DNA from: a bacterium | Lineage (GTDB): Bacteria; Bacillota; Clostridia; Christensenellales; DTU072 | DNA length: 64,000 nt | Assembly: GCA_963644945.1 (NCBI GenBank) | Contig: CAVIQK010000008.1 | Location: 879-64,878 of the forward strand | Direction of reading: 5' to 3' | Part shown: piece by piece, positions 39,255 to 64,000 of the stretch | Layout of the letters: the number at the start of each line of letters is the position of its first letter | How positions within the stretch are numbered: position 1 is the first letter of the stretch | Notes under the pieces: generated by a model | Seen by the model: the letters and a program-made list of their open reading frames with translations, nothing else | What the model was told of the DNA's origin: nothing | Database searches by the model: none | Program-made: the position numbers and the translations under genes

Positions 39255-39258
39255 AATA

Positions 39259-40824: not shown

Positions 40825-40825
40825 A

Positions 40826-42040: not shown

Positions 42041-42063
42041 TTTGATTGTCGATACAATGTTGC

Positions 42064-44622: not shown

Positions 44623-44834
44623 AAATCTTACCTCCAAGTAAATTTTTATAGGTTTTCTATAATTTGGTATATAATACAACTTTGTCAACTTTGATGTAAA
44701 GCGATTTTAAGTTAATTTTAATATTTTTTTTCATACCATGCTTTTTTTATCGTCAAAACAGTGATTATTGTGTTCAAAAAGGCGCTTTGTATTAAAAAAA
44801 GTAATATGAATAAATTTTGTATATGATATTTTTA

Positions 44835-44878
44835 TATAAAAATCCCCGACAGCATAGCGATGAGCATACGTGTCGGGG
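44835..44878 (-). terminator. rho-independent terminator after the 1698-aa gene
   Basis: CCCCGACA (44844-44851) pairs with TGTCGGGG (44871-44878) around a 19-nt loop, followed on the minus strand by ATTTTTATAT. Confidence 0.6.
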
Positions 44879-44912
44879 AATAAAATCTATTATTTAACTA
44901 CGATTTTTGTTT

Positions 44913-47900
44913 TTACTTTCTGGATGCGTTGTTTTCGAGTTGGCGTTTTTCGGCTTTGACATCCTCTTTTTCCTTTTTCTTCGCCTCGGTTTTCTTGTGG
45001 TCGGCTTCGGGGACGGAGATTCTTTCCATCGAATCGTCAAGGTCACTGGACATCGATCTGTCTAGGTCGCTTGATAATGACGATGATCTGCTAAGGTCGG
45101 TTTCGGTATCTTTCTTGACGGTAAAGATCTTGTCGATGCCGTCTTTTAGAGGTTGGAAATCGGGGTTATCTCTTCTTCCTGCCATTTCGTTGAACTGACG
45201 CTCATTGAGACCGGTCTTTTCTTTGGCGACTGCTTTGAATCTTGCGATAGCATTCTTTTCGGTCCTATATTTGCCGAGATAGTTGAAGAATTTTGACCAA
45301 TTGCTTCTCTTTTGGTTGTACATGTGCATTGCACGATATGTTTGTGCGATTCTCATTTGCGCTTCTTCGGTCGTAGCATCACCCGAATTGAGTTGGGCGG
45401 TGGCGTTTTCTATCATTGAACGGAAGTCGTTGTAACCGAGTCCCGATTTCCATTGATCCGATGTGAAGTCAAAGGACGGGGAATTGGCTTGCATTTGGCG
45501 AAGTGCCTTTTCTTCTTCGGTCTTGGGAACATGTTTTTCGACAAAGGAGTTTCTCATGGCTTTCAACTCCGCTTGCGACATGCAACCGTGGAAGGGGCTT
45601 GAGGGATAACCGACAACACGCAAAGCATTTCTCATGATGGTGTCGAGGGTTTCTTCGGAGCCGACCATTTGTTCTACGGTGATCGTGGTGCCGTTCTTTG
45701 CGCACTCTTTATTGATTGAATGTAATATATCCGTATATAGATCAATAAATAGCATTCTGTATTGTTTTTCGAACACTAATTTGTTGACACGTTCGCCGGT
45801 TTTGTCGGTGTTGTCGAACATGAAATCACGTACAACGTCGTCAAGTTCTTTTCTGTCGATCTTTACGCCATACTTATATGCAAGTCTTTCGTTGGGGCTC
45901 ATTTCGTCGTCTTCGTATTCGTAAGGCTCGCTTTCAAAATATTTCTCGACATATTCGGTTTCGCCACTTTCTACACTCATTCCGCCAAAATAAACTTGGA
46001 GAGTGTCGAGTTCGCCTCTGGTTGCCAAAGAGTAGGATGAACCGGGGTTGCGAGAAGGCATAGAATATTTGCCGTTCTTGTATGTCCTGAAATCAATGGC
46101 TTTGGCATTGTCGAGGGCTATTTCGAATTCCTTGCGGTCAACATCTTCCATAGCATCTCCGTCAAATACGAAGTCATTATATACAGGGTGTCCGTCTTCG
46201 GATGCATCTAGGCTGTGTTCGGGCTCGATAAAATCTTCCTTTTCTGACATGCCCATAGGCTTGACGTCGGTATTTATGATTTCTTCGACTTTCTTTACTT
46301 GTTGTTTTTTGACTTGCGGATCTCTTTCCTTTTCGAGTCCTTTTTCGATTTCAAAGACGTTGTTCATTTGGTTGACGAACGCTTCGATATCTTCGTCGAT
46401 AGGTGTGGCGATACCTGATTTCTTGTCGATTTCTTCTTCGGATACCGCACCGATTTCGATTGCCGCTTGTTTTAGGTCTTTTGCGAACTTATACATTTCT
46501 TCTCTAAGTTCTTCGACATCTATTCTAAATAGAGGATTTTCTATCAAGTTTCTAGCCAAAACATTGACACGATCGTAGAACTCTATAAGGGATGCGGTCG
46601 CAACGAGTTTGCCTTCTTCGGTAAGATTGCCGAATTCGTCCTTGTATTTTTCTGCGCCTCTTACGCATTCGAGGTTTTTGTATTGTTCCATCGGGACGTT
46701 CTTCCAACGGGAGAATGTGAATTCTATGTTGCCGATGGTTGTGCCGATTTGGTTTTCGGTCATCTTGGCAAAGAAGCCGTCATAGTGACGAGTTTCCCAA
46801 GTGGGAACACCGATTTTAATCGTGTTGACCATTTGCTCGGTGCTCATTGCTCCGTAATTGTCGACTTCCTTTTCTTCATGGCCGTAGAGTTTTAGTGCGC
46901 CTTTCATGCATCTTTCTACCATGCCGGTTGCATAAGCGAAAGGAACTTTATCTTTATAATGGTTGGTTGCGGCGGTGCCTTTCAAACCGTCCATTGCGGT
47001 GGCAAAGATCTCTTTCCAAAGAGCATTGTAGGCTTTTTTGTCAATTCTCTTTTGTGAGAATACCGCTTCAAACTTGTCAAATAGTTCGTTGGCGCTAATA
47101 TCGCATTTTGTGAAGGATACGATTTCGCCGAGTTGTTGACGGATGACGTTGGCTCTATTCAACTTGAATAGTTTTGTTTGTTCGGCTTTGTCTCTTTCGG
47201 CTCTTGCATTGTCGTCAAGGTCAAATACTTCGGTGTCGAAAACATCGCCTAGACCGAAGAAGTCTTGTTCTTCTGTCGCCGATTCTTGATAATATTTGTC
47301 GGTTTCTGCCTTTCTTTCCTTGGCTGCCGCTGCTGCAAGGTCTGCTTGATATTGACGGACACTTTCGTCACAAGCCGCTTGAATATTTGTTCTTACTGCA
47401 TCTAGACGTGCAACGGGGTTGTCGTAGTATGCGGAGAGTTTTCTTATATATTCGGGATCGTCGGTTGCGTTGCCTTGTGAGACGTCTATTGTGTCGAGGG
47501 CTACACTAAGTTGTCCGTTGTCGCCTTTTGTTATGTGAGCGAATTGGACTACACCAGTTTGGTTGATAAGAGCATGCAAGAGTTCTTTTGCCGCAGTATA
47601 TTGGCTATATTTTTTGCCGTTGGCGGTGATTTTGTCGTATATGGATACTCCGTCCACGAACACAAGGCGCATGGTGTCTTCGAAACTTGAATTTTCAAAG
47701 TGATAACTTCTCAAAATGTAAGAATCTTGGTAATCGGGAGAATATATCGTATTGATGAGTCCGAGAGTTAGATAATCGGATTCGTCGGTAAATTTGGGAT
47801 CGTTCATCGCAACGCCTTTTAGTGCCAAAGCGCTTGCAGGAAGGTCTACTTTTAATGTAGAAACACTGTCGATCTCTTGTTGGGTTTTGGATTTTTCTCT

Positions 47901-50009
47901 CTTGAAGTTGACATATTTTTGAGCAATATCTCTATAACTCTTTTTGCCTACTTCGCCCTTGTACTCTTCGAGGTCGTCGAGAAGTTCGTCTTCACCTTTT
48001 TCTTTATCGTTTCTTGTTCTGCTTATTGCGAGTTTGTCGGCATAATATCCGCTACCCATTGTTATGCCCATCATGTCTTCGAGAGCGCCCATGAATTCTG
48101 TCGAAGTGACGAAATAGTGTGCTTCGAAGGTCGAGAATTTTAGTCTATCGGCAGGGGTGGGGTAACGTTGTTCGAAATACCATTTGTTTTCGTTGAGTTT
48201 GACGGTCATTGTTTGTTGGAATCTCGAATAAGCCAACGCTCTGACAAGGTCTTCGACCGTTTCTAATTTTTGCGGAGGGGTGTAGGACTCCAAGAAATCA
48301 TAGATTTTGTCAAGATAAATCTTTATTGCATCGTGATCGTCCTCGGAAAAAGCCTTGATCATCTTCTCGTTTTCTTGTGTGAATTCTTTTTCGTCCAAAT
48401 TCTTGTCGCCCATTTTGAGAGTGCCGGCAAGTTTTAGGAGTACCGCCATATCCATAAGATCTCTTGCGTCAAAGGTAGTGTTTTTGACATTTAGGGTACC
48501 GGAATTTACAACTCTTGTTTTGGTATTTTCATAACTTTTTCTGGCTTGGTCAATGGTGAAGAATGCCATGTTTAGATTTTTCTTTTCAAATGTAAATGCA
48601 AACTTCGGCAAAGTTCTTCTTCTGATCTCTTTGGGATCGCCTTCTACGGGAAGTCCCATCTCCAAACGTTTTTCGTTAAGTTTTTTGTTTTGTTCGTCAA
48701 GTGCTTCGGTCTTGTAGCGCTCAATGAGAGATTCTTGTGTCCTTCTCTTGGCTGCTTCAAGCATTTCGGTCAAATATTTTTGTTGGGTTGCAAACAACAC
48801 TCTTCTTGCATCTTGATCGTTTTCGAGATTGGAGATTTTCTCGACATATTCGGCTTTGTCGTTGCCGTTTCTTACATCGACAACGTCCATTTTATATTCA
48901 AATCTGCCGTCTATTTCGGCTACTTGAACAAAGGATACGACACCTGTTTGGTTGGCAAGGGCATCCAAAATAATGGCGGGACCTTCTACAGGGCTGTTTT
49001 TGTCTTTCATCAAATCATAGACGCTTACTCCGTCAATGAATACAAGACGATAAGTGTTGCCCTTTTCGCCTGCCATATATTTAGAAAGTAATCCGCCACC
49101 GGTTTGGGTTGCGCCTTGTATAAGTTGGATACCGCATTCGGCTTCGGAGAGCATACTGCCTGCTTTGCGAGATACATCTCCCGACAAAGTCTTGTTGACG
49201 ATGCCGTCCAAAATTTGTTTGGGATCGAGGTCTGTTCCTTTCAAATTGTTTATCCATTCGGGGACAACCATTTTCTTGACGGATGCTTCGCCTTTTTCGG
49301 AAATGGCTTCTAGATCGATAGCATCGAGCAATGCTCCGGCAAGGGCTAGTTGCATGCCGACGCCTTCTCTGGTCGCTTCGATGCCCTCGGCACCCTTTTC
49401 TCTAACAAATTTGTCCATTTCGGTACCGTTGTCCAAAACATCGACAGAATTGGTATCCATAGTCAAGAGATAATCGTTGAGCGGATATGTGTCGGACATG
49501 GAGTGCAACATGACTTTGATTTCCATCGATTGGAGTTTCATGAGTCCGTCGAGTCCTTGATAACGGCTTCTGACATATTCCGGATATTCTCTGAGTTTTG
49601 TGACTGCCAAAGATTGTTGCGCACGATGAACTAGTCTTGTTCTGATAGATTCGTCAACGGTGTTGACATTTTCTACCGGTTGGTAATTTTCGGCAAATCT
49701 TGTCCAACGATCGAGATAATCGAAGATCTTTTCTCTGTCGTCTTCGGCAAATGCTTTGTATACTTCTCCTACAGTCCTTGCGAATTCTTCATCGGATAGT
49801 TCTCCGCCGCCGGTTCCGTCGAATTTATGTTCGTATCTCAAAAATAATGTAAGGTCAGCCAAATCTCTTATGTCGAGATGTCTGTCTTTTATTATTTGCT
49901 CTTCGGCTTTGTATTGTTGTTTTACTTCGTTAAAAAGAGCCGATGTCGCGCTGATTTTTCTTGCGGCATCCATGACCGCTTCTTTTTCCATAGTTACAAC
50001 GAATTTCAT
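44913..50009 (-). CDS. 1698-aa orphan protein, highly charged, no signal peptide/TM, internal tandem duplication
   Basis: Uninterrupted ORF with an AAGGAG SD. No P-loop, HExxH or DEAD-type motif seen by eye. Modules at aa 45-410 and 513-875 are paralogous. Ser/Asp-rich then Lys/Glu-rich C-terminus. Confidence 0.8.
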   Translation of the reverse strand: MKFVVTMEKEAVMDAARKISATSALFNEVKQQYKAEEQIIKDRHLDIRDLADLTLFLRYEHKFDGTGGGELSDEEFARTVGEVYKAFAEDDREKIFDYLDRWTRFAENYQPVENVNTVDESIRTRLVHRAQQSLAVTKLREYPEYVRSRYQGLDGLMKLQSMEIKVMLHSMSDTYPLNDYLLTMDTNSVDVLDNGTEMDKFVREKGAEGIEATREGVGMQLALAGALLDAIDLEAISEKGEASVKKMVVPEWINNLKGTDLDPKQILDGIVNKTLSGDVSRKAGSMLSEAECGIQLIQGATQTGGGLLSKYMAGEKGNTYRLVFIDGVSVYDLMKDKNSPVEGPAIILDALANQTGVVSFVQVAEIDGRFEYKMDVVDVRNGNDKAEYVEKISNLENDQDARRVLFATQQKYLTEMLEAAKRRTQESLIERYKTEALDEQNKKLNEKRLEMGLPVEGDPKEIRRRTLPKFAFTFEKKNLNMAFFTIDQARKSYENTKTRVVNSGTLNVKNTTFDARDLMDMAVLLKLAGTLKMGDKNLDEKEFTQENEKMIKAFSEDDHDAIKIYLDKIYDFLESYTPPQKLETVEDLVRALAYSRFQQTMTVKLNENKWYFEQRYPTPADRLKFSTFEAHYFVTSTEFMGALEDMMGITMGSGYYADKLAISRTRNDKEKGEDELLDDLEEYKGEVGKKSYRDIAQKYVNFKREKSKTQQEIDSVSTLKVDLPASALALKGVAMNDPKFTDESDYLTLGLINTIYSPDYQDSYILRSYHFENSSFEDTMRLVFVDGVSIYDKITANGKKYSQYTAAKELLHALINQTGVVQFAHITKGDNGQLSVALDTIDVSQGNATDDPEYIRKLSAYYDNPVARLDAVRTNIQAACDESVRQYQADLAAAAAKERKAETDKYYQESATEEQDFFGLGDVFDTEVFDLDDNARAERDKAEQTKLFKLNRANVIRQQLGEIVSFTKCDISANELFDKFEAVFSQKRIDKKAYNALWKEIFATAMDGLKGTAATNHYKDKVPFAYATGMVERCMKGALKLYGHEEKEVDNYGAMSTEQMVNTIKIGVPTWETRHYDGFFAKMTENQIGTTIGNIEFTFSRWKNVPMEQYKNLECVRGAEKYKDEFGNLTEEGKLVATASLIEFYDRVNVLARNLIENPLFRIDVEELREEMYKFAKDLKQAAIEIGAVSEEEIDKKSGIATPIDEDIEAFVNQMNNVFEIEKGLEKERDPQVKKQQVKKVEEIINTDVKPMGMSEKEDFIEPEHSLDASEDGHPVYNDFVFDGDAMEDVDRKEFEIALDNAKAIDFRTYKNGKYSMPSRNPGSSYSLATRGELDTLQVYFGGMSVESGETEYVEKYFESEPYEYEDDEMSPNERLAYKYGVKIDRKELDDVVRDFMFDNTDKTGERVNKLVFEKQYRMLFIDLYTDILHSINKECAKNGTTITVEQMVGSEETLDTIMRNALRVVGYPSSPFHGCMSQAELKAMRNSFVEKHVPKTEEEKALRQMQANSPSFDFTSDQWKSGLGYNDFRSMIENATAQLNSGDATTEEAQMRIAQTYRAMHMYNQKRSNWSKFFNYLGKYRTEKNAIARFKAVAKEKTGLNERQFNEMAGRRDNPDFQPLKDGIDKIFTVKKDTETDLSRSSSLSSDLDRSMSSDLDDSMERISVPEADHKKTEAKKKEKEDVKAEKRQLENNASRK
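47385..49877 (-). repeat. protein-level tandem duplication (two ~365-aa modules) inside the 1698-aa ORF
   Basis: Matching pairs: DIRDLADL/DARDLMDM, AFAEDDREKIFDYLD/AFSEDDHDAIKIYLD, YRLVFIDGVSVYD/MRLVFVDGVSIYD, ALANQTGVVSF/ALINQTGVVQF. All sit at a constant offset of about 460-468 aa. Confidence 0.8.
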
Positions 50010-50098
50010 GATTTTTTCTCCTTGTTTATTGATTTTGGGTGTTGTAAGTTTTTTCTATTTATTAAGACACGTTTCTTTTTCAAAAAGGTGCCAAAATT

Positions 50099-50284
50099 TT
50101 ATTTTTTCAAATTTACCGTTCTTTCTCTCTCTTTCTTTGGCTCCGAACTTTTTATGCTAGATTTATGCGATGCTTCGGGAACGGAAAATTTTTCTCTGTC
50201 GTCCATATCTAAAATTTTGCCCATGACAATTTCGAATCGATTGTCTATGTCTAGCGAATTGATGGCATTTTCTAAACTATTCAT
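50099..50284 (-). CDS. 61-aa protein, paralog of the C-terminal tail of the 1698-aa protein
   Basis: AGGAGGA SD 8 nt upstream. The ATG overlaps the sigma-factor stop by 8 nt. ...DMDDREKFSVPEASHK plus a K/E tail matches ...DLDDSMERISVPEADHK plus a K/E tail. Confidence 0.6.
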   Translation of the reverse strand: MNSLENAINSLDIDNRFEIVMGKILDMDDREKFSVPEASHKSSIKSSEPKKERERTVNLKK

Positions 50285-50798
50285 CGTAAAATCCTCCTAG
50301 TTGAGATTTTAGTTTTTTGACAAGTCTTCTATACTTGCTCTTTACGGTGTTTACCGACGAGCCTTCTTTTTCGGCAATTTCCGCAAGCGAATATCCTTCT
50401 AATATATGTTTTGATAAAAGTTCGAATTCTTCTGCGCTTGTGAGTTTTTTTATTTCGGCTATAATCTCACTGCCTTCGTCAAAACAATATGTTCCGCAAA
50501 TATTTTCGTCAAGTTCTTCGGTGGGTTTTCGGTCTCTCAGTCTATTGAGTGCCAAATTCCTTGCAGATCTCGTCAAATAATATTTTATGTTTTTTATGTC
50601 CGTCGTCCCTAGTCTGTTGTAAAAATTCACAAAGACGTCATCGGAGATTTCGTCCGTATCGCTTTTGTCCCCTAGATACCTATAAGCACAAAACCATACG
50701 AGTTTGAAGTATGTGTCGTATATTTCTCTGAATAAGGACAGTTTTGCTTCTTGCGTCCCGTTTTTTGTAAAGTTTTCAACAGTCGCTTCGAGTGTCAT
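50277..50798 (-). CDS. ECF-type sigma-70 family RNA polymerase sigma factor
   Basis: 173 aa. Region 2 (DDVFVNFY...YLTRSARNLALNRLR) and region 4 HTH (EGYSLAEIAEKEGSSVNTVKSKYRRLVKKLK). Starts 2 nt after the VirB4 stop. Confidence 0.85.
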   Translation of the reverse strand: MTLEATVENFTKNGTQEAKLSLFREIYDTYFKLVWFCAYRYLGDKSDTDEISDDVFVNFYNRLGTTDIKNIKYYLTRSARNLALNRLRDRKPTEELDENICGTYCFDEGSEIIAEIKKLTSAEEFELLSKHILEGYSLAEIAEKEGSSVNTVKSKYRRLVKKLKSQLGGFYDE

Positions 50799-50800
50799 TT

Positions 50801-53434
50801 TTATTCAAAGAGTCCTCTCATCTTGTCGGACGAAACTATCGAGATATTTGTCCTTGACTGCGGTCCGGTGATAATGAAGGCGTGACCTCTTTCGTTGTTG
50901 ACGATTTGGTCTTGTTCGACGGCATTGATTTTGCCGGCTTTTTCGTATAGCGTGCAAAGGTCGTCCATGTCGTTGGGGGACAACGAGAATATGAAGGAAT
51001 ATTGACATGCGTTGATTACCGCAGTGGACTTCCTTATTATATCTTGACTGCCGACGAAGTCTTTTATGTTTTGCGTAATAACGATTTGCATACCGTTGTA
51101 TTTTCTTATACGTTTTGCAAGTTGGAACATAAAGTCGAGTGCTACGGGGTATTTAGGATCGATGAACACGTGCGCTTCGTCTATCGCTACGATGATCTTT
51201 CTGTTGGTCTTGTATTTCAAATTGAAATCACGATTTTTGATAATCTCGTTGTCTAACCATCTTAGGACCAAAAGCATTTGTGCGTTGGCGATTGCTTGGT
51301 TGTGGTTGGACAAAAGCGCTCTAAAATTGAACACCGTAAAGTTCTCTTTTATGGATAGTGAGGACTTGCCGTTCCACAGCATTGCATCTCTGCCGTCACC
51401 GCTAAACTTTGCGATAAAGTTTTTCAATATACGTAAGTTTTCTATATCGTAATTTATAGTGGCGGTTTCGAGTCTTTTACAAATCAAATTATATAGGTCG
51501 TCAAATATAGGATAATCTTCGGCATGTAAAGAAGCAAGTTCGGTACGGGAATTTATGCCCTTTTCCATATACATTTCAACAATGAGGTTGTTGAGATATT
51601 CTAGAGATTGGGGATCGATGCCTGACAAGATTTCTCTAAAAAATTGTTCCAAAAATTGCAAATGTACACCGAAGTTGTTGGCACCTTCGCTGTTTTCGTC
51701 GGATTCTAGCGACGTGATAATATGGAAGGGGTTGATTCGTCCTTCGGTCGCCGTACCTACGTCTATCATCTTTCCGCCTAAGTTTTTGGCGAGAGTTCCG
51801 TATTCGTCTTCAGGATCAAGCACGAAAATTTTGCTGTTTTCTACAGCGAGTTGCGTGAGCATTGTTTTGGTAGCGAAAGATTTTCCCGATCCGGATCTTC
51901 CCATAATAACCATATTGGAATTGACTCTTTCGTTGTTACGTTTGAAAAAGTCAACTATTACGGGGAAGCCTTTGCTTTCTCCTAAAAGCACGCCTTCGTC
52001 ATCCATGACGGACGACAACACGAAAGGAAAACATGCGGCAATCGTGGAGGAGTGTATGGCTCTTACATATTCGGGCATGGCATCGTATGCGGACAAGTTG
52101 GACGACACGACGGCTTGATGCTGTTTGCAGAAATTGTCCGAGATTTCAAAACCCTCTTCGGATGTTATTCTACGGATACGTTTCTTGGCGCTCTTGCTGG
52201 TCTCTCCGTTGGCATATACGGTAAAATGTATCGTTGCTTTGAAAAGTGTTTCATTGTCGTTTTGGAGCATCTGCAAGAGATTGACCAAAGTTTTAATATG
52301 TGTTTGTTTGTCAATAATCGAACTTGCCTTATACGATTGTTCGCTTTGGCTCATGAGTTCTTGGAGAGATCTGTCTATCATCCTTACGGCTTTGCCTTTT
52401 TCGTAAGGTTCTAGATTCATGACGACTTTGACACCCTCCATATTGAATATTTTATATCCCCATGCGTTCAAAACGGATACGGGATAATTGCTTACGGTGT
52501 AATTGTAGGTTTCGACTCCGTCGATATATGTCTTGGTCGTGGTAAATTGAACGTCTTTAGGCATTATCCAATTCAAACGTTCTTCTTCTTGAATTACGTC
52601 TAAATCGTTTTCTTCGACTTGATCGGTATATTGATATTTTAGGAACAAACAAAGTTCTTTGTCCCCGAGTATTCTGGAAGTCATCCCACCGTCTAAAAAT
52701 GTGGTTACGGCACTCCCTAAAATCTCGTTTATGACATTTTTGTCGGGATCATATACGACCAAGTAATAGAAAGGTCTGTAAATCTTGTTTTTGTCGTCAA
52801 GATTGTCATAAATTCTTATACGGTCGTTTATTATATTGATACGAGCATTCAATTCTTGTTCGGTTATCGCACCCGTTTCATAAATTCTTTTTAGAATTTC
52901 TTGTTTTTCGTTTTCAAGTTCGACATATTTTGAAAAGTCTAATTTTCTGTCGATTTTGACAAGGCTTGCCTTGCTCTTGCCGGCAATACTTCTGATAACT
53001 TTGCCAAAACATTTGTCGATTATTTGGTCTTGTCTAAACCCCGACAACAGTCTAAACTCTCTCGGATCTATTTCGAGTACGCCTGCATAGTAATCGCCAT
53101 ACACGATAAATCCGTCTTTGACGTCTTTGAATGCGATAAAATTGGATATATCCGTCGATGCACTCTTGTAGTCTGCCGAATATTTTTTGACCGAAAACAA
53201 ATATTTGACGAAATGCACGAAAAACATATAAAATCTTCCGCCGTTGTAGGGTATAAACAAACCTACCACCAAGCAAAGCAAAACGACCATCAAAAAGTAT
53301 TTTGCCACACCTATATTGGATAGGAACAAAAGCACTTCTAGAATCACGCCTACGAGTGCGATTATTATGTCCGTAATGGATATGTTTTTGAAAAATTCGA
53401 CTTTAACCTTGGCGGTTTTCGGAATTATTCTCAT
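50801..53434 (-). CDS. VirB4/TraE-type conjugal transfer ATPase with N-terminal membrane (VirB3-like) segment
   Basis: 877 aa. Two N-terminal TM helices. Walker A MGRSGSGKSF, Walker B IVAIDEAHVF, ...QIVITQNIKDF. AAGGAG SD. Confidence 0.85.
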   Translation of the reverse strand: MRIIPKTAKVKVEFFKNISITDIIIALVGVILEVLLFLSNIGVAKYFLMVVLLCLVVGLFIPYNGGRFYMFFVHFVKYLFSVKKYSADYKSASTDISNFIAFKDVKDGFIVYGDYYAGVLEIDPREFRLLSGFRQDQIIDKCFGKVIRSIAGKSKASLVKIDRKLDFSKYVELENEKQEILKRIYETGAITEQELNARINIINDRIRIYDNLDDKNKIYRPFYYLVVYDPDKNVINEILGSAVTTFLDGGMTSRILGDKELCLFLKYQYTDQVEENDLDVIQEEERLNWIMPKDVQFTTTKTYIDGVETYNYTVSNYPVSVLNAWGYKIFNMEGVKVVMNLEPYEKGKAVRMIDRSLQELMSQSEQSYKASSIIDKQTHIKTLVNLLQMLQNDNETLFKATIHFTVYANGETSKSAKKRIRRITSEEGFEISDNFCKQHQAVVSSNLSAYDAMPEYVRAIHSSTIAACFPFVLSSVMDDEGVLLGESKGFPVIVDFFKRNNERVNSNMVIMGRSGSGKSFATKTMLTQLAVENSKIFVLDPEDEYGTLAKNLGGKMIDVGTATEGRINPFHIITSLESDENSEGANNFGVHLQFLEQFFREILSGIDPQSLEYLNNLIVEMYMEKGINSRTELASLHAEDYPIFDDLYNLICKRLETATINYDIENLRILKNFIAKFSGDGRDAMLWNGKSSLSIKENFTVFNFRALLSNHNQAIANAQMLLVLRWLDNEIIKNRDFNLKYKTNRKIIVAIDEAHVFIDPKYPVALDFMFQLAKRIRKYNGMQIVITQNIKDFVGSQDIIRKSTAVINACQYSFIFSLSPNDMDDLCTLYEKAGKINAVEQDQIVNNERGHAFIITGPQSRTNISIVSSDKMRGLFE

Positions 53435-53460: not shown

Positions 53461-54840
53461 TTAGTTGTTGAGGTCCTCGCCCTCTTTCTTGTTGGTAATA
53501 TTATTGTTCATTGCATTTAGCACTGCATTTTCTCGGTTGGAATTCAAGTTGTCGGGCGTCTTATTGTTGTTGTCGTTAGGGGCATCGTTGTTGTCGCCGT
53601 TGTTTTTGATAATGTTGGCGATTTCTCCGTCCTTTTTGCCGGCATCTCCTATATCGTTGTGGTTGGCATTGTCGCCGTCACCGTCCATGTTTCCGCCGTC
53701 TATAGAATTCCTGTCGCCCGTCGTGCCGTCTTTTCCGCCACCGTAATGGCTACCAAAGAGTTTGTTGCCGATTTTGTCTTCGACACCACGATTGAGGGCG
53801 TTGCCCATTCTCGATGCGCCCCAAGTGAAGGGTTTTGCGGCTACTCCGGCTACGGTTTTCAATGCTCCGCCGAGAGCATTTCCTGCAAAAGCACTGTCTC
53901 TTAGTTCGTTGCTTCCGCCACCGCTTGACACGAGGTTTCCTACAAGTGCCATCGCTTTCTTCATGGTTAGCGATCCGCCTATTATAAACAATATTTTACA
54001 TAGGTTGTTCAAGAAATTGGAATCGAAAAATTGTAAAGACGATTTGACGACAAGTAGCACGATAAGGCAATAAATGTTGACTGCGAGAATGGTCCCGAAT
54101 CCTACGAAAAATTTGGTAAGCATTTGCTCACGCCAAAGTTTGAAATGGGCTCCGTCGTCAAGTACCGACGTCGCTACGGGGAAGGGGGACACGATATACA
54201 AAATAACTATAGAAATTGCTCTATCGACAAATACGAGTAGTGACCATGCAATATTCCAAAGTATGACAGCACATGCAATCCACGATGCAACGTAGTCAAA
54301 ACTTTCTATATTCATATAACTGCGCACGACTTGAGTGTCCATATAACTAAGCGTGCCGTCCAAGAATTGTTGTGCATCGTTTTCGTTCACCCAAGCACCG
54401 TCCGAAAATGCGGTGAATAAGAATGATCCTATGCTACTGCCACCGCTCAATGTCGCTTGATAAAGTGCTTGCATAAAGACGTTGGACACCCAAATGCTTA
54501 CGAGCATAATTGCGGGTATAAACAAGAACGTCAACACGCTTTTTAGCGATTTCACACACACTTGTGCAGGGGTTAGGTCGGGCTTTTCTTTGGCGAGAAG
54601 TTTTATAATTGCAAGTATTGTAAAGAATACTAATACGATTAGTCCTAAAATTGCGGCAACCATGAAAGCGTTGCTCACTTCGGTGCTTCTCAGTAAGTAT
54701 GTCAAAAAGTCCGTTGACTTGCCGTCAACGACAATATCTTCGATACCGCACAATTTATTGGCGCATGACATAAGTCCGTCAATAATGCGGAGCAATGATT
54801 TTGTTATACTATACAAAAAATCCCAAAACCAATCAAACAT
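53461..54840 (-). CDS. VirB6/TrbL-like polytopic membrane protein with Asn/Asp/Gly-rich C-terminal tail
   Basis: 459 aa, about 6 TM helices. Sits immediately upstream of VirB4, as in Gram-positive and Mycoplasma ICE T4SS loci. Low-complexity tail of about 95 aa. Confidence 0.55.
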   Translation of the reverse strand: MFDWFWDFLYSITKSLLRIIDGLMSCANKLCGIEDIVVDGKSTDFLTYLLRSTEVSNAFMVAAILGLIVLVFFTILAIIKLLAKEKPDLTPAQVCVKSLKSVLTFLFIPAIMLVSIWVSNVFMQALYQATLSGGSSIGSFLFTAFSDGAWVNENDAQQFLDGTLSYMDTQVVRSYMNIESFDYVASWIACAVILWNIAWSLLVFVDRAISIVILYIVSPFPVATSVLDDGAHFKLWREQMLTKFFVGFGTILAVNIYCLIVLLVVKSSLQFFDSNFLNNLCKILFIIGGSLTMKKAMALVGNLVSSGGGSNELRDSAFAGNALGGALKTVAGVAAKPFTWGASRMGNALNRGVEDKIGNKLFGSHYGGGKDGTTGDRNSIDGGNMDGDGDNANHNDIGDAGKKDGEIANIIKNNGDNNDAPNDNNNKTPDNLNSNRENAVLNAMNNNITNKKEGEDLNN

Positions 54841-54852
54841 ATTCTTACCTTT

Positions 54853-55563
54853 CTACTTAATACAAATCAGCATTGCCGTAAAGCACATTTCGATTTTTTC
54901 GTCGCCTTTTTCAATTCCCTCTTGATCGTTGTACGTGACACAGTTGTTGTTTATCTTGAAGAGTAAACACTTGTCCTTTTCGAGAACAACCGACGATGCC
55001 GAATTGGTGCCGTCCGTCCACTGTTTGAGGGTAAACGAGGTCCAATTTCCTGCTTTTACGGAAACGGTGATCGAGCCTATTTTGTTTTCGCTTTTCGGCT
55101 CGTCAAAAGATTTTAACCTTTTCTTTTCTTCACCGGTATCTTCGTCGGTATAAGTTTCGAAGTCGGTGTCCGTCCCCGTTGCTATCGAAGACGGCATGTC
55201 ACTTACGATATACGCTTCGATATTCAGTCTTGCATCGCTTTTTGAACATAGATATATTGCGAACTCTCTTATTTCGACATTTTCGCCCGCAAATACTCCC
55301 ATATATTTGTAAGCATTGCTTTTTGTGGGGCAGACGAAATCGTCTTTTCTAAAATTGTTGAGAGCATTGTCGTTGTAGAGGTCTGTAATCGGCATGGACA
55401 CCACCGTCAAATCGTTGTTGACAAATTTGACGCTAGGGAACTTTTTGCCGTAGTCGGCCTCATCTTCTATGTTCAAGTCGGGCATACAACCGAATAACAA
55501 TACGGAAATTGCTATAAGGCAGATAAAACTTAAAAGTCTTTTTCCCGTCTTACGCTCCGACAT
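54853..55563 (-). CDS. T4SS-associated lipoprotein
   Basis: ATG 55563 gives MSERKTGKRLLSFICLIAISVLLFGC (lipobox LFGC). The track start at 55614 is TTG inside the upstream gene. The mature part looks rich in beta-strand. Confidence 0.65.
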   Translation of the reverse strand: MSERKTGKRLLSFICLIAISVLLFGCMPDLNIEDEADYGKKFPSVKFVNNDLTVVSMPITDLYNDNALNNFRKDDFVCPTKSNAYKYMGVFAGENVEIREFAIYLCSKSDARLNIEAYIVSDMPSSIATGTDTDFETYTDEDTGEEKKRLKSFDEPKSENKIGSITVSVKAGNWTSFTLKQWTDGTNSASSVVLEKDKCLLFKINNNCVTYNDQEGIEKGDEKIEMCFTAMLICIK

Positions 55564-55858
55564 AAGTAGGCCACCATTTCTCAAATACGGTGAGACCGAC
55601 TTGCAACATTGCAAGCAATACGAATATCAAAACAAATCCGATGATAGCATTTTTAAGTGCTTTTTTGGCTTTGTCGTGATCTTGAGGTTCTTCGGCTTTG
55701 GCATATTTTACACCAAGCAAGATGCAGTAAATTGCACCGATAGAACCGACAACACCCAACAAAACGGGGACCAATACATCGCATACGTCGAGTATCGGTT
55801 TTACGATTTTTTCGAGATCGCCTTGAGACATCCCTGTTGCTAAAAGATTGTAAATCAT
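55550..55858 (-). CDS. small 2-TM pilin-like (VirB2/TrbC-like) protein
   Basis: 102 aa. Two hydrophobic helices (VLVPVLLGVVGSIGAIYCILLGV and AIIGFVLIFVLLAMLQVGL) are joined by a charged loop. AGGAGA SD. Confidence 0.45.
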   Translation of the reverse strand: MIYNLLATGMSQGDLEKIVKPILDVCDVLVPVLLGVVGSIGAIYCILLGVKYAKAEEPQDHDKAKKALKNAIIGFVLIFVLLAMLQVGLTVFEKWWPTYVGA

Positions 55859-55895: not shown

Positions 55896-58800
55896 TTACT
55901 CTATTCTAGAACGTTTTCTAAACAACAATCCTAGGAAAAGCCCTATTGAGATCGCAACCACTACGCCTATTATGAGTACGGTCGTTGCGATGTTGGCGGT
56001 ATATACTCTTGTGAATTCTACTTCACTTTGTCCGCCCGCCTCGTTGACTACTACTATTTTATAATTACCTTTTTCGGTAATCTCCGGAACATCCGACACT
56101 GTGAGCGCTTCGATCGTGTTGACTAATTCGCCGTCTTTATAAATATATATCGTGTCGCCTGCTTTGTATCCGGATATTTTTACGTTCTTGTTGGTCGATT
56201 CGCCTTCGGCTACACCTTCAAGTGTAATTGTAGGCACTGATTTGTCGATTGTCACCGAAAATGCGGTTGTTTTTCCCGTAACGGGTGACATCATAACGAT
56301 TTTATATTCACCGTTTTCGTCTAGTGCTATATATTTGCAACCGTCTTTTTCTTCGACAAACTCGATGTAATCTACTTCGCCACCGCCTGCATTGAAAGTG
56401 GCTTCGGTGATTTCATAGCCGTAAGGTGCCGTATATTCGAACGAAACAAGCGCATGTGTCACAATGTAGAACGAGAAGTAATCTTTGTTCCCGCATTCGT
56501 CTTGTAGCACGACTTCCCACTTGCCGTTGCCGGTAAACGAGGTTAGATCATAGTCTAACATCTCTTTGCCGTCATGATATACTGCACAATAAGACACAGA
56601 ATCGCCGTTTAAGGGTGCAAAGTAAACGACGGACATGTTGGTTATTTCGCCGTTGACAAGTTTTTGGTCAACGCTACCCGTATAGAAACAGTAGTCTGCG
56701 ACGCTATCTCTTCTTACCGAATAGTTGAGCGTGTTGCCTGCTTTGTCGCTTACCGAAATGACATAACTTCCGTCTCTCATATATTTTTCGCCACTCTTAT
56801 ATGCCCCTATCTCTTGGTTGTTGATAGATATTACTGCGGACAAATTGGCGGAGAAAGTAATCGATACGGGATCTTTGGTCACTCCGGAATTGACTTTCAT
56901 GTTGTCAACACCTATTTCTATCGTGGTGCGATACAACACACACGAAAACTTGTACGAAAAACCGTATTCGTCGGTATATTCTATATTATACTCATATTTA
57001 CCGCTGTCAAAGGTTCCGGGGAAACTGAGTGTATAAGGAATATCTTTGGTTTCGGAATTGACTTTGAACAGATATTTCTTTGCTTTGGTTTCAAAAGATA
57101 TGGTCTTGTTGCTCCAAATACTATTATCGACAAGCGGAGAGTCTAGCGAATAAGCCGTCTTTTTGAGATCTCTTGTTTCTCTCGATACGGAAAGCGTCGT
57201 ATGAGATGAATAATTGACGGTTTTTGCGACCTTGTTGCCGTAAATATCTCTAAATACTATTTCATATACTCCGTCACCGTCTGCACCGACTTTGTAATCG
57301 CTAGCGAACGAAACTTTTGTTTCGGATGAATTGTCATATATTACGGTCAACTTTTCGCCATAGGCTACCGTTATATACTCGACACTCGCTCCTTTCAATG
57401 TATTTTCGACAAAAGACACTTGGGTATTGGTATATCCCTCGTCTTTTCGCAAAGCCTTTTCGTTGAAGCCCGTAAGCCATCCGTCGGAATATTTGATAGA
57501 TTTATTCTTGATATGAATATTTCTTGTGACTACGTTGCCACAGTCATCCGTCAAAGTGACGACATATTCGCCGTCGCCTCCTACGGAGATTTGGGTATAT
57601 GTATCCGTTGTTTTTACGGTGTAAGACTTGTATGCGGAGCCGTTTTTGGTGACCGCCACCGTTACATTTTTATAGACGATAAGCGACACAGAACTATTGG
57701 AATAGAAATCGCCCTCGTATGTAGTGGAATAAGACTTGGTGCTTCCGTCGGTATAAGTGATTTCGCCGACTGTCGCAATACCTACGCTGTACAGCACTCT
57801 TGTTTCGGAGTAGTTGCCGTACTTGTTGTAAACATGGAACACATAGAAGCCTTCGCCCAGTCTTCCGCACTCGTAAGTGCCACCCAGAGCGACATCTTCA
57901 AATTCTGCTTGTTCAAAACTTATAGGCGAATAATTCACAAGTACGGTTGTCACTTCGGCTTCTAAAGTCAAAGGACAAATCTCGTTTATATTCAAAATAT
58001 CGGTTAGTCTTACGTCAACACCGTCTTTTTGGTAAGTTAGATACGAACATTCGTCCGACAATACGATTTTGGAATATTTGGTATCTATCGCAGAGGAGGA
58101 ACTGACTCTCAAAGCAATTTCCATTTTGTTGACTTTGCCTTGAACTGCATCTTTTAGTACGGCACCGACATAGACTATGCCGTTTCTAGCATAAGTTCTG
58201 ATGTAACCGCCGTCGGTTTCGCCTATTGTGATGTATGTTGTCGGCAAAACACCCAAATCGACTTCTTCTTCAGCCGTTTTGAGTTCGCCACTTTCGTCTA
58301 TTACAACCTTGTAGATTGTACGAATCAAATTGGATCCGTCGGTAGTCAACTTGAAATATTCTCCGTCCACGACGAAAGCAAACGTTCCGGCACCTTCTAC
58401 CGTAGCAACAGCATATTCGTGACCGTATTTTGTACTGCTTTTTTCGAATTCGAGTTCTTCGACGTCGTCAATAATCATCCTTGTAAAATCGGACTTTCCT
58501 ATTGAGAACGAGAAGGATGTTTGATTGCCGATAAGGTCGGTGGCGGTTATTTGGTAAGTGCCTTCGGTACTCAACTGAATGCTTGACACTTTGTCCCCTA
58601 AATACTCCGTAGTTTTGCCGTTTATCGTACAAGTCCACTTGTATATTCCGGAAAGGTCACCTACCCCTATATTTACGATACCGCCGTTGACGGTTTCGCC
58701 CGAAGCAATTGTTTCGGTCACTATATCGGTAAGTTCGCAACTCACGTCGTCAAGGTTGATAACATCGCCCGATTTTGCGGTGTCTTTGATCTTTTGGAGA

Positions 58801-63317: not shown

Positions 63318-64000
63318 TCAAGACATACTCTCAAGTCTTGCAAAAATTTCACTTTCGGTGAGTTCTTTGTGTGCTTCTCTAAACTTTACGAATCTTTCAA
63401 AGAGTCTGGTTTCTTCTGCGAGTTTTTCTTTCTCTTCGTCTTCTTCGGTTGTGGGTTTTGTATTGCTTCCCATCTTCATGGTAGCACCCGTATTTTGATT
63501 GTCGTCTTCACTCGACAACACGAGATCGTTGCGTTTTTCCGCATCAAAATATATGGCATGCTCGTCAAAGAATCTTTCGCTGAGAAAATCGGTGTTCATT
63601 GTGCCGGTCTTGTATAGCGGGACCTTAAAACTCGGGGTGAAATAACTTTTTAGCGGATAGTTGCCGAACGTGACGATGATGGAGTGTCCTATGTCCGAGC
63701 CATGATTGAGTCTTTGGAGTTCGGACGGATAAATAAGAGGTCTTACTTGTGTTTGGGTAGAAACATTTACCGATTTATCCATATCCGTTCCGCTTGTCGA
63801 ACGAGTGACGACCGTAATATTTCCGCATAGTTCGGAAAATTCTTTACATGTCCCCATGTCGTTAGATCCTATAAACATTTTGATTCCGCAGTTGCCTTTG
63901 ATTATATCGGCGACTTTATCGCCATAGACGTTGTTTAGTTGCGAATATGATTGCACGATCATATTGAACCAAATCTTACGGCTTCTTCCGACGGTAATCA
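63318..64000 (-). CDS. VirD4/TraG-type type IV coupling protein, C-terminal part (N-terminus beyond window)
   Basis: The frame stays open to the window edge (...ITVGRSRKIWFNMIVQSYSQLNNVYGDKVADIIKGNCGIKMFIGSNDMGTCKEFSELCG). This is the conserved QS-SQL-YG...NC... block of T4CPs. Acidic C-terminal tail. Confidence 0.75.
   Translation of the reverse strand, partial: ITVGRSRKIWFNMIVQSYSQLNNVYGDKVADIIKGNCGIKMFIGSNDMGTCKEFSELCGNITVVTRSTSGTDMDKSVNVSTQTQVRPLIYPSELQRLNHGSDIGHSIIVTFGNYPLKSYFTPSFKVPLYKTGTMNTDFLSERFFDEHAIYFDAEKRNDLVLSSEDDNQNTGATMKMGSNTKPTTEEDEEKEKLAEETRLFERFVKFREAHKELTESEIFARLESMS

What the first reader, a model, noticed from the sequence alone, without database searches (positions are those of the whole stretch)
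47385..49877. Giant cytoplasmic orphan built from a tandemly duplicated ~365-aa module
Residues about 45-410 and about 513-875 of the 1698-aa protein align block for block at a constant offset of 460-468 aa:
- DIRDLADL / DARDLMDM
- AFAEDDREKIFDYLD / AFSEDDHDAIKIYLD
- YRLVFIDGVSVYD / MRLVFVDGVSIYD
- ALANQTGVVSF / ALINQTGVVQF
- a trailing D..A/VR block

The copies are old: identity is low outside the anchor blocks, and the DNA is diverged. Both copies have therefore been kept under selection.

I could find no P-loop, metalloprotease, nuclease or helicase signature by eye. There is no signal peptide and no TM helix. The remaining roughly 820 C-terminal residues are unique.

The gene sits last in a T4SS operon. 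That position fits the large polyvalent or cargo proteins of conjugative elements, but this domain content is not one I recognise.
Basis: seen in the sequence. Interest (0 to 1): 0.68.

Follow-up and report, generated by a model that had tools for sequence, protein, structure and literature searches.

The report
Twice-duplicated giant T4SS-linked protein
A 1,698-residue soluble protein with no recognisable fold, built by two ancient internal duplications, is the last gene of a Mycoplasma-ICE-like type IV secretion gene block in gut Firmicutes; it is probably a cargo of that machine, and protein-secreting type IV systems are almost unknown in Gram-positive bacteria.

Summary
Residues 6-427 and 473-890 of the 1,698-aa ORF (44913-50009, minus strand) are homologous (HHalign probability 100%, E=4.7e-41). 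All 19 family members collected carry both copies. Within-species dN/dS is 0.02-0.09.

New findings:
- A second, older duplication is probable (aa 956-1199 vs 1369-1611, P=1e-4).
- The module is also found as single-copy 450-650-aa proteins elsewhere.
- Its AlphaFold model is confident (pLDDT 86) but matches nothing in PDB or BFVD. Pfam, NCBIfam, PHROGs and PADLOC give no hit.
- The gene ends a conserved block: VirD4, 2,468-aa adhesin, pilin, lipoprotein, VirB6-like, VirB4, ECF sigma, 61-aa protein, giant. The VirB4 and VirB6-like genes are of the Mycoplasma-ICE type.
- The giant has its own ECF-like promoter motif and its own terminator.
- The same promoter motif precedes unlinked paralogs in other genomes.
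- A C-terminal motif (ERISVPEADH) is shared only with the 61-aa protein that follows the sigma gene.

Best reading (about 40%): a sigma-controlled substrate of the T4SS, recognised through its tail. The biochemical function of the module remains unknown. No relaxase or integrase was seen.

The parts
44913..50009 (-). Giant ORF, 1,698 aa. Soluble and acidic (net charge -68), with no TM helix or signal peptide.
   Evidence: family alignment
48729..49994 (-). Module copy 1 (aa 6-427). It has a helical sub-domain (about aa 9-231) and an alpha/beta sub-domain (about aa 240-397).
   Evidence: HHalign. AF2 model pLDDT 86.2, pTM 0.83. No fold match.
48594..48728 (-). Inter-module connector (aa 428-472). 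It is part of a long predicted helix (aa 399-450) followed by a short low-confidence linker.
47340..48593 (-). Module copy 2 (aa 473-890), homologous to copy 1.
46413..47144 (-). Helical middle domain H1 (aa 956-1199). It is present only in long-form family members and is probably a diverged copy of the C-terminal domain core.
   Evidence: AF2 model
45177..45905 (-). Core of the C-terminal helical domain H2 (aa 1369-1611). It is present in all family members.
44997..45026 (-). Tail motif E-R-I-S-V-P-E-A-D-H (aa 1662-1671), lying in a disordered charged tail 37 residues from the C-terminus.
   Evidence: I1664, V1666, E1668 and A1669 are invariant. The motif is exclusive to giant tails and the 61-aa protein. 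The tail has pLDDT below 50.
50063..50091 (-). ECF-type promoter-like motif GCACC-N16-GTGTCTTA, located between the 61-aa gene and the giant's start codon.
   Evidence: 2 matches in the window, 0 expected by chance
44836..44879 (-). Intrinsic-terminator-like hairpin followed by a U-run, 34 nt after the giant's stop codon.
   Evidence: dG -22 kcal/mol, z -5.6
50099..50284 (-). 61-aa protein. Its start overlaps the stop of the sigma gene. It carries EKFSVPEASH exactly 31 residues from its C-terminus and is a candidate anti-sigma factor and/or co-substrate.
   Evidence: no Pfam hit
50277..50798 (-). ECF-type sigma-70 family factor, 173 aa.
   Evidence: TIGR02937, 60.4 bits against a cut-off of 42.9
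50801..53434 (-). VirB4-like ATPase, 877 aa, with two N-terminal hydrophobic segments.
   Evidence: (NF045975 Mbov_0397 family, 583.4 bits against a cut-off of 590)
53461..54840 (-). VirB6-like polytopic membrane protein, 459 aa.
   Evidence: (NF045848, 157 bits against a cut-off of 90; NF045889, 113 bits against 70)
54853..55614 (-). Lipoprotein-like protein with the lipobox LLFGC.
55550..55858 (-). VirB2-like T4SS pilin, 102 aa.
   Evidence: PF18895
56590..56618 (-). Second copy of the ECF-type promoter-like motif. It lies inside the 3' end of the adhesin gene, about 730 nt upstream of the pilin gene.
55896..63302 (-). 2,468-aa surface protein with an N-terminal signal-like segment and a C-terminal TM anchor.
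63318..63962 (-). C-terminal part of the VirD4-type coupling protein. The gene runs off the window; it is 784 aa in same-species contigs.

Best explanation
The giant is a sigma-controlled cargo (substrate) of the adjacent minimised monoderm type IV secretion system.

**Shown**
- It is a soluble 190-kDa protein with the layout module, module, helical domain, helical domain, disordered tail.
- It is the last, separately transcribed unit of the block VirD4, adhesin, pilin, lipoprotein, VirB6-like, VirB4, ECF sigma, 61-aa protein.
- A conserved promoter-like motif (TTTGCACC-N16/17-GTGTCTTA) sits in front of three things: the giant, the pilin-to-sigma genes, and unlinked giant paralogs in other genomes.
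- A 10-residue motif about 35-45 residues from the C-terminus is shared only with the 61-aa protein.

**Inferred**
- The block's ECF sigma drives these promoters.
- The tail motif is the signal by which the VirD4 coupling protein recruits the giant, and also the 61-aa protein, for export.
- Outside the producer or inside a contacted cell, the two old paralogous modules bind or act on a target through their conserved polar patch (D-x-R-D, Y-L-D, R-x-x-Q, K, F-x-D-G, N-x-T-G).

The biochemical activity of the module is unknown.
For: 1. **Linkage.** The same gene order holds in 10 of 14 species-level loci and in all same-species assemblies. What lies downstream of the giant differs between genomes: Opp, TetR/MCRA, or MscS.
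2. **Regulation.** The promoter-like motif occurs upstream of the giant and inside the 3' end of the adhesin gene in every sigma-bearing locus, with invariant hexamers and a variable spacer. It also occurs upstream of the unlinked paralogs in L010 and L013. Only 2 stray hits were found in 1.21 Mb, and none is expected in the window.
3. **Tail motif.** All 26 matches among 1.12 million six-frame residues lie in giant tails (34-46 aa from the end) or in the 61-aa protein (always 31 aa from the end). The motif is absent from 39 of 40 remote module relatives, so it goes with the T4SS block and not with the module.
4. **Effector-like genetics.**
   - Paralogs are scattered away from the T4SS in a MAG that also has the linked copy (L007 and L010).
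   - Long and short architectures occupy the same slot.
   - Divergence matches that of the surface proteins: giant 41-47% mean identity, adhesin 51.5%, lipoprotein 49.8%, against VirB4 85.7%.
   - Within-species dN/dS is still 0.02-0.09.
5. **Location.** The protein is cytoplasmic and soluble, with a disordered C-terminus.
6. **Not obviously conjugative.** No relaxase, integrase or transposase was found in the flanks examined.
Against: - There is no direct evidence of export.
- No effector-type enzymatic domain is recognisable.
- The T4SS machinery is closest to that of Mycoplasma ICEs, which are conjugative, and canonical relaxases are not known there either. Absence of a relaxase therefore does not prove a protein-secretion role.
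- Single-module relatives sit in ordinary chromosomal contexts with no T4SS within 10 kb.
- Two family members (L003/L006 and L009) lack the promoter motif.
- I could not examine the region upstream of VirD4 in this species beyond a 557-aa MBG_3 protein.
- The promoter assignment rests on motif conservation only.
Confidence: 0.4

Rival explanations
1. The giant is a cytoplasmic accessory or DNA-processing component of a conjugative element of the Mycoplasma-ICE type. It could, for example, be the missing relaxosome or escort protein, or an anti-restriction DNA-mimic-like protein sent along with DNA.
For: - The VirB4 and VirB6-like proteins match NCBIfam Mycoplasma-ICE models.
- Mycoplasma ICEs carry essential proteins of unknown function around CDS17-CDS19 (PMC6030558).
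- The block sits at different chromosomal places in different genomes.
- The unlinked paralog in L010 lies next to an SSB gene.
- The protein is strongly acidic.
- Several Tyr and Asp residues are invariant in both modules.
Against: - No HUH, Rep_trans, primase, helicase, nuclease or methylase signature is found by Pfam, NCBIfam or PHROGs.
- There is no structural match to any DNA enzyme.
- No integrase or DDE transposase lies in the examined flanks.
- Mycoplasma CDS19 is described as a membrane protein, whereas the giant has no TM segment.
- Net charge of -68 argues against DNA binding.
- It evolves far faster than the machinery.
Confidence: 0.2
2. The module family has a general cytoplasmic role unrelated to secretion, such as a scaffold or an enzyme. 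The giant is then a fused, duplicated version that merely sits next to the T4SS block.
For: - Single-module relatives lie among housekeeping genes (L32, acetate kinase, SASP) or among unrelated unknown genes, with no T4SS within 10 kb.
- The family member in L003/L006 lies among housekeeping genes.
- Purifying selection is strong.
Against: - The position at the end of the T4SS block is conserved across species, while everything downstream changes.
- The promoter motif is shared with the T4SS genes and with unlinked paralogs.
- The tail motif is shared with the sigma-coupled 61-aa protein.
Confidence: 0.2
3. The giant is a regulator. The shared motif is a sigma-binding element, so the 61-aa protein and the giant both sequester or sense the ECF sigma, and the giant provides feedback on T4SS expression.
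For: - The 61-aa gene is translationally coupled to the sigma gene, the usual place for an anti-sigma factor.
- The motif is found only in these two proteins.
- Related T4SS blocks carry other sigma-regulatory parts, for example a STAS protein after VirB4 in L037.
Against: - A 190-kDa, four-domain, fast-diverging protein is unlike known anti-sigma factors.
- The locus in L009 keeps the giant and its tail motif but has no sigma gene or 61-aa gene beside it.
- No anti-sigma domain is detected in the 61-aa protein.
Confidence: 0.1

Closest known systems
Conjugation module of Mycoplasma integrative conjugative elements (ICEA/MICE: CDS5 VirD4, CDS16 VirB6-like, CDS17 VirB4, CDS14 lipoprotein, CDS19)
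   Same: - The VirB4 scores 583 bits on the Mbov_0397-family model.
- The 459-aa membrane protein passes the MMCAP2_0566 and Mbov_0396 family models.
- Both are minimal sets with a surface lipoprotein and no obvious VirB1 or VirB8.
- A large gene of unknown function follows VirB4, and in ICEA the corresponding CDS19 is essential for transfer (PMC6030558; PMC12857230).
   Different: - The VirB4 falls just under the curated cut-off (590 bits).
- No DDE transposase (CDS22) or other recombinase was seen.
- An ECF sigma, a 61-aa partner and a VirB2-like pilin are present.
- The giant has no TM segment and matches no NCBIfam Mycoplasma-ICE model.
- The host is a sporulating-Firmicutes-like gut bacterium using the standard genetic code. 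This is inferred from the window's genes and from SipL and SASP in related loci.
T4SS effectors recruited by C-terminal signals (Xanthomonas X-Tfe/XVIPCD, Legionella E-block, Bartonella BID plus a charged tail). This comparison rests on my own knowledge.
   Same: - Soluble proteins, sometimes encoded far from the machine, that share a conserved C-terminal element.
- A charged, disordered C-terminus.
- Faster evolution than the machinery.
   Different: - Those systems are in diderm bacteria.
- The motif here is only about 10 residues long and lies 31-46 residues from the end.
- The effector domains here are unknown, and no immunity-like partner gene is seen.
Streptococcus suis 89K island T4SS secreting SspA-1
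   Same: It is a Gram-positive T4SS proposed to export a protein rather than DNA (PMC12857230).
   Different: - SspA-1 is a subtilisin-like protease released to the medium.
- The 89K system has VirB1 and VirB8.
- There is no sigma/small-protein pair, and the cargo is unrelated.
FlgM/sigma-28 (flagellar) and ExsE (T3SS) secretion-coupled regulation. This comparison rests on my own knowledge.
   Same: A small protein encoded with a dedicated transcription factor could be exported by the machine it regulates. Here the 61-aa protein carries the same C-terminal motif as the putative cargo.
   Different: This is purely inferred here. No such circuit is known for any T4SS, and the 61-aa protein matches no anti-sigma family.
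Polyvalent proteins of conjugative elements and phages (Iyer, Burroughs, Anand, de Souza & Aravind 2017). This comparison rests on my own knowledge.
   Same: A very large multi-domain soluble protein encoded next to a T4SS.
   Different: None of the hallmark domains (ArdC, methylases, SNF2/DEAD helicases, primases, peptidases, lytic transglycosylases) is detectable.

Membership tests
Internally duplicated (tandem-module) protein | Significant self-similarity at a constant offset, conserved in relatives | tested here: met
   BLASTP E=7e-15 and 2e-13. HHalign E=4.7e-41. Both copies are present in all 19 family members.
T4SS substrate / effector | Genetic and regulatory linkage to a T4SS | tested here: met
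   Synteny holds in 10 of 14 loci. A promoter-like motif is shared with the T4SS genes and with unlinked paralogs.
T4SS substrate / effector | C-terminal translocation signal recognised by the coupling protein | tested here: inconclusive
   A conserved, family-specific tail motif lies in a disordered tail and is shared with the 61-aa protein. Binding to VirD4 was not tested.
T4SS substrate / effector | T4SS-dependent export or translocation demonstrated | not testable with these tools
   This needs an experiment.
Mycoplasma ICE (MICE) backbone | VirB4 of the Mbov_0397 (CDS17) family | tested here: inconclusive
   NF045975 scores 583.4 bits against a curated cut-off of 590.
Mycoplasma ICE (MICE) backbone | CDS16-type polytopic membrane protein | tested here: met
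   NF045848 scores 157 bits (cut-off 90). NF045889 scores 113 bits (cut-off 70).
Mycoplasma ICE (MICE) backbone | DDE transposase (CDS22) and evidence of excision | tested here: not met
   No transposase or integrase was found among the Pfam hits for ORFs flanking the block, in the window or in L009, L012, L026 and L037. The left flank in this species was seen only up to the gene before VirD4.
Mycoplasma ICE CDS19-like protein | Membrane protein of the conjugative channel module; sequence similarity | tested here: not met
   The giant has no TM segment and no NCBIfam hit. CDS19 is grouped with the TM proteins in PMC6030558. I had no CDS19 sequence for a direct comparison.
Conjugative relaxase | HUH, Rep_trans, TcpM or other MOB-family domain | tested here: not met
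   No Pfam, NCBIfam or PHROGs hit and no fold match.
Polyvalent proteins of mobile elements | Fusion of known DNA-modifying, anti-restriction, helicase or peptidase domains | tested here: not met
   No Pfam families hit the giant.
Anti-phage defence protein | Match to a known defence family | tested here: not met
   PADLOC gave no hits for the giant, the sigma factor, the 61-aa protein or remote relatives.
ECF sigma factor (the neighbouring 173-aa protein) | Sigma-70 regions 2 and 4 only; ECF family model | tested here: met
   PF04542 and PF08281. TIGR02937 scores 60.4 bits against a cut-off of 42.9.
Anti-sigma factor (the 61-aa protein) | Recognisable anti-sigma domain; binding to the sigma factor | tested here: inconclusive
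   Its position and translational coupling fit. No Pfam anti-sigma domain is detected. Binding was not testable.

The most novel reading that the evidence does not exclude
This block may be a chromosomal, non-conjugative Gram-positive T4SS dedicated to protein export. The giant family would be its cargo, addressed by the ISVxEA(D/S)H tail. The 61-aa protein would be a secreted anti-sigma factor carrying the same address, so that an assembled, active machine exports its own repressor and switches on cargo synthesis. That would be a FlgM-like checkpoint, which has never been described for a T4SS.
Probability: 0.12. Interest if true: 0.85.

Novelty: new variant of a known kind. Interest (0 to 1): 0.6.

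Why it matters
A recent review calls it a long-standing question whether Gram-positive T4SSs have evolved into dedicated protein translocators. It cites a single example, S. suis 89K (PMC12857230).

This locus gives concrete handles on that question:
- a candidate cargo family;
- a candidate 10-residue address, shared by two proteins;
- a candidate dedicated sigma factor with a defined promoter motif that also marks unlinked paralogs.

Independently of the T4SS question, the ~420-residue module is an undescribed domain family. Its predicted fold is confident yet has no match in PDB or BFVD. The module has been duplicated in tandem at least twice independently.

Tried and rejected
- **Family libraries on the giant.** Pfam, NCBIfam and PADLOC gave no hits; PHROGs gave one non-significant hit (phrog_16675, E=0.0074).
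- **PDB sequence search.** Profiles of the module, the C-terminal half and the single-module family found nothing.
- **Foldseek.** The module model gave a best E of 1.2 against PDB and 0.31 against BFVD. The aa 936-1698 model (pLDDT 63.7) matched only designed helical repeats at E of 0.05 or worse, which I treat as noise.
- **tblastn against 72,556 plasmids and 50,697 phages.** The giant was searched against both collections; two remote relatives (P0019, P0016) against the plasmids only. No match.
- **Last large homolog search, using a C-terminal-domain profile.** It returned nothing, not even the family itself, so it is uninformative.
- **Rfam on the block.** Nothing.
- **Kinase-like reading of 'D-x-R-D-L ... 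F-x-D-G'.** Rejected. The spacing (about 278 residues) and the mostly helical fold do not fit.
- **Polymorphic-toxin reading.** Rejected. The C-terminal domain is among the better-conserved parts of the protein (about 46% mean identity), no more variable than the modules, and no conserved small downstream (immunity-like) gene exists; a terminator follows, then unrelated genes.
- **Homology of the modules to the middle or C-terminal domains.** Rejected (HHalign probability of 1.3% or less).
- **Tail motif in remote single-module relatives.** Absent (1 of 40).
- **Module relatives near related VirD4 genes.** None within 10 kb in 62 metagenome loci. In relatives with compact blocks the giant does not follow VirB4.
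- **Organism identity.** It could not be settled. The MAG titles (Parasutterella, Coriobacteriaceae, Butyrivibrio and others) are mutually inconsistent for near-identical T4SS genes.
Full report
**1. The observation**

The finding lies inside one ORF, 44913..50009 on the minus strand. It encodes 1,698 aa and starts at an ATG preceded by AAGGAGA. The stated coordinates correspond to aa 45-875.

BLASTP of aa 1-470 against the rest of the protein gives two collinear segments. The first aligns aa 40-170 with 508-636 (E=7e-15). The second aligns aa 318-402 with 778-868 (E=2e-13).

With 12-sequence alignments of each copy, HHalign gives probability 100%, E=4.7e-41 over 396 columns, aa 6-427 against 473-890. 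The N-terminal helical half and the C-terminal alpha/beta half of the module each align on their own, at E=7e-29 and 3e-26.

At the DNA level only two short traces remain at the module offset: 35 nt at 74% and 32 nt at 81%.

**2. Age and selection**

I collected 19 distinct family members from the protein searches and from GTDB representative genomes. All carry both copies.

In a neighbour-joining tree of modules, the M1 copies and the M2 copies form two sister clades, and single-module relatives lie outside. This points to one duplication at the base of the family. A 955-aa remote relative (P0017) appears to have duplicated its module independently. Long branches make this tree only indicative.

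Against five assemblies of the same species, the giant gene has dN/dS of 0.02-0.09. That is similar to VirB4 (0-0.03) and the adhesin (0.06-0.08). The protein, including both copies, is under purifying selection now.

**3. Anatomy**

- **Modules.** AlphaFold2 on a 10-row alignment of module copies gives a confident model of aa 1-470 (pLDDT 86.2, pTM 0.83). It shows a helical sub-domain (about aa 9-231), a small alpha/beta sub-domain (about aa 240-397), and then a ~50-residue helix leading to the second module.
- **Invariant residues.** These residues are invariant in both copies of five proteins: D46, R48, D49, E75, D91, Y98-L99-D100, R129, Q132, K138, Y145, F324, D326-G327, D332, N353, G356, D378 and K391.
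- **C-terminal half.** The model of aa 936-1698 is all-helical with moderate confidence (pLDDT 63.7). It has long disordered stretches at roughly aa 1199-1290 and aa 1311-1351, and in the last ~60 residues.
- **Solubility.** No hydrophobic segment reaches TM level (best KD-19 window 1.35). Net charge is -68.

**4. A second duplication**

They are unrelated to the modules (HHalign probability of 1.3% or less).

However, aa 956-1199 align collinearly with aa 1369-1611 at P=1e-4, probability 57%, over 224 columns. The matching motifs are Y..LW..W against Y..LF.DLY, MVER.MKGALKLYGH..FGGMT against LLDKMM..AK.VGYP..NGG.T, and WK and GK..A.

Family members come in two architectures. The long form (1,630-1,770 aa) has both helical domains. 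The short form (1,358-1,418 aa) lacks the first. The long form therefore reads module, module, helical, helical, tail. I rate this second duplication as probable, not proven.

**5. What the module is related to**

Pfam, NCBIfam and PADLOC give nothing for the giant, and PHROGs only one non-significant hit. PDB sequence profiles find nothing. Foldseek finds no match for the confident module model in PDB (best E=1.2) or BFVD (best E=0.31).

An exhaustive HMMER search of 1.84 billion cluster representatives with the module profile found 10 two-module family members and 20 remote relatives (E from 4e-17 to 1e-3). Most remote relatives are 450-650-aa proteins that match the whole module once, and they have no Pfam domain. 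A further word-based search added about 20 more of these.

Their contexts show no T4SS within 10 kb. One sits among L32, acetate kinase and SASP genes. One sits beside two S-layer-type giant surface proteins. One sits in a run of unknown genes.

The module is therefore an undescribed domain family that is wider than the giant. The giant is not an orphan.

**6. The neighbourhood**

Upstream on the same strand lie, in order:
- a VirD4-type coupling protein (cut by the window edge; 784 aa in same-species contigs);
- a 2,468-aa surface protein;
- a PF18895 VirB2-like pilin;
- a lipoprotein;
- a 459-aa polytopic membrane protein;
- an 877-aa VirB4;
- a 173-aa ECF-type sigma factor;
- a 61-aa protein whose start overlaps the sigma stop codon;
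- the giant.

NCBIfam places the VirB4 at 583.4 bits on the Mycoplasma-ICE 'Mbov_0397' model (cut-off 590). The membrane protein scores above the cut-offs of the MMCAP2_0566 and Mbov_0396 families. The machinery is thus of the minimal Mycoplasma-ICE type described in PMC6030558 and PMC12857230.

The host is not a mycoplasma. The window carries TyrRS, GAPDH, glycogen genes, a hybrid histidine kinase and Opp genes read in the standard code.

The gene order is conserved in 10 of 14 species-level loci. What follows the giant differs: Opp here, TetR/MCRA in L012, and MscS with a thiamine transporter in L009. The giant is therefore the last gene of the conserved block.

I saw no relaxase, integrase or transposase in the window, downstream of the giant in two other genomes, or upstream of VirD4 in two related metagenome loci. 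Those upstream regions carry an MBG_3 surface protein, a two-component system and SipL.

**7. Own transcription unit, shared promoter motif**

Between the 61-aa gene and the giant lies TTTTGGCACC-N16-GTGTCTTA (50063-50091, minus strand). In the other species this is TTTGCACC-N16/17-GTGTCTTA, with invariant end elements and a variable spacer.

A regex scan of the window plus 87 loci (1.21 Mb) found the motif at these places:
- before the giant in every locus that has the sigma gene;
- at a second conserved place inside the 3' end of the adhesin gene (56590-56618), about 730 nt before the pilin gene;
- before the unlinked family members in L010 and L013.

Only two other, apparently random, hits appeared. 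In the window the stricter pattern matches only these two sites, with none in 100 shuffles.

A hairpin of -22 kcal/mol (z -5.6) followed by a U-run lies 34 nt after the stop codon.

The inference is that the giant is a separate transcription unit driven by the block's ECF sigma, and that unlinked paralogs belong to the same regulon. This rests on motif conservation only.

**8. A motif shared with the 61-aa protein**

The giant's disordered tail carries E-R-I-S-V-P-E-A-D-H (aa 1662-1671), with I, V, E and A invariant in the family. The 61-aa protein carries E-K-F-S-V-P-E-A-S-H.

A degenerate pattern for this motif matched 26 times in 1.12 million residues of six-frame ORFs. Every match was either in a giant tail (34-46 residues from the end) or in the 61-aa protein (always 31 residues from the end).

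The motif is absent from 39 of 40 remote module relatives. It therefore belongs with the T4SS block, not with the module. The 61-aa protein has no Pfam match.

**9. Evolutionary tempo**

Mean pairwise amino-acid identity across eight species-level loci:

| Protein | Mean identity |
|---|---|
| VirB4 | 85.7% |
| VirB6-like | 77.8% |
| Sigma factor | 74.1% |
| 61-aa protein | 58.7% |
| Adhesin | 51.5% |
| Lipoprotein | 49.8% |
| Giant M1 | 47.5% |
| Giant M2 | 41.1% |
| Giant C-terminal domain | 45.9% |

The predicted-cytoplasmic giant thus diverges like the surface-exposed parts of the system.

One pair of loci (L012 and L016) is 62-88% identical in DNA across the T4SS genes. It then switches to ~100% identity about 70 nt into the giant ORF and stays there to the contig end. 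This is either a recent allele exchange or an assembly chimera; I cannot tell which.

**10. Interpretation**

The best-supported reading (about 0.4) is that the giant is a sigma-controlled substrate of the T4SS, recognised through its tail. This reading accounts for:
- the conserved terminal position in the block;
- the shared promoter motif, including at unlinked paralogs;
- the block-specific C-terminal motif in a disordered tail;
- the scattered paralogs and the alternative architectures;
- divergence like that of the surface proteins despite purifying selection.

What the modules do after export is unknown. Their conserved polar residues suggest a binding or catalytic site present in both copies.

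The rivals are:
- a cytoplasmic DNA-transfer accessory of an ICE-like element (0.2);
- a general cytoplasmic protein merely adjacent to the block (0.2);
- a regulator that binds the sigma factor (0.1).

The most novel reading not excluded is a FlgM-like circuit in which the 61-aa protein is a secreted anti-sigma factor sharing the cargo's address (0.12).

**11. Novelty**

The duplicated module is a new domain family with no detectable structural relative in the libraries at hand. The gene's likely role, T4SS cargo, is a known kind of thing. The setting is not described: a Gram-positive, Mycoplasma-ICE-like machinery with a dedicated ECF sigma and a shared tail motif. The 2025 review notes only one Gram-positive protein-exporting T4SS. 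I file this as a new variant of a known kind, with interest 0.6.

Noticed in passing
window 50099-50284 (-) and 44997-45026 (-): A conserved 61-aa protein is translationally coupled to the ECF sigma gene. It shares the motif [ER][RK]-[IF]-[ST]-V-P-E-A-[DSA]-H with the giant's tail. The motif lies at a fixed 31 residues from the small protein's C-terminus and occurs nowhere else in 1.12 million residues scanned.
   Followed up: yes
window 50063-50091 (-), 56590-56618 (-); L010 9626-9652; L013 7994-8020: An ECF-type promoter-like motif, TTTGCACC-N16/17-GTGTCTTA, occurs before the giant, inside the 3' end of the adhesin gene, and before unlinked giant paralogs in other genomes.
   Followed up: yes
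L012 vs L016, from about 70 nt into the giant ORF (L012 ~10070) to the L016 contig end: DNA identity jumps from 62-88% across the T4SS genes to ~100% inside the giant gene. This is either a recent exchange of the giant allele between species or a metagenome assembly chimera.
   Followed up: partly
L017, L001/L007, L004, L008, L003/L006 (contig ends): In many assemblies the contig ends within about 0.1-0.9 kb after the giant gene. This suggests strain-variable sequence or a repeat at the block boundary.
   Followed up: no
window 35858-44688 (-): The Opp-type ABC transporter proteins are unusually long: OppA-like 874 aa, OppC-like 521 aa, and an ATPase of 730 aa whose ABC domain is split by a large insertion.
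   Followed up: no
window 55896-63302 (-): A 2,468-aa surface protein has a signal-like N-terminus and a C-terminal TM anchor. Only a weak BiPBP_C hit was found. It evolves fast (about 50% identity between species) inside the otherwise conserved T4SS block.
   Followed up: partly
loci L004-L016 (record titles): MAGs carrying T4SS genes 81-95% identical in VirB4 are titled Parasutterella, Coriobacteriaceae, Butyrivibrio, Ruminococcus, Eubacterium and Christensenella. Either the bins are mislabelled or the block is mobile across phyla.
   Followed up: no
L010 17-9944; L013 3599-6238: The unlinked paralogs sit in mobile-looking contexts. L010 has a 2,278-aa orphan protein and an SSB gene. L013 has a C5 DNA methylase plus a MutH-like endonuclease.
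   Followed up: partly
L037 6817-7296 and 19766-20065; L032, L034, L039: In more distant T4SS blocks of this type (VirB4 about 48% identical), the sigma gene lies about 3 kb upstream of VirD4. In L037 a STAS (anti-anti-sigma-like) protein follows VirB4. No giant relative was detected in the up to ~3 kb of sequence available downstream of VirB4 in these blocks.
   Followed up: partly
P0015 (3,425 aa) and P0017/P0018: Other proteins are built from several module copies: at least 3 partial matches in P0015, and an independent tandem pair in P0017.
   Followed up: partly
window 50801-53434 (-): The VirB4 has two N-terminal hydrophobic segments, as in VirB3-VirB4 fusions.
   Followed up: no
window 15220-16551 (-): A stand-alone NRPS condensation-domain protein (443 aa) lies next to a GH5 cellulase and a hybrid histidine kinase.
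   Followed up: no
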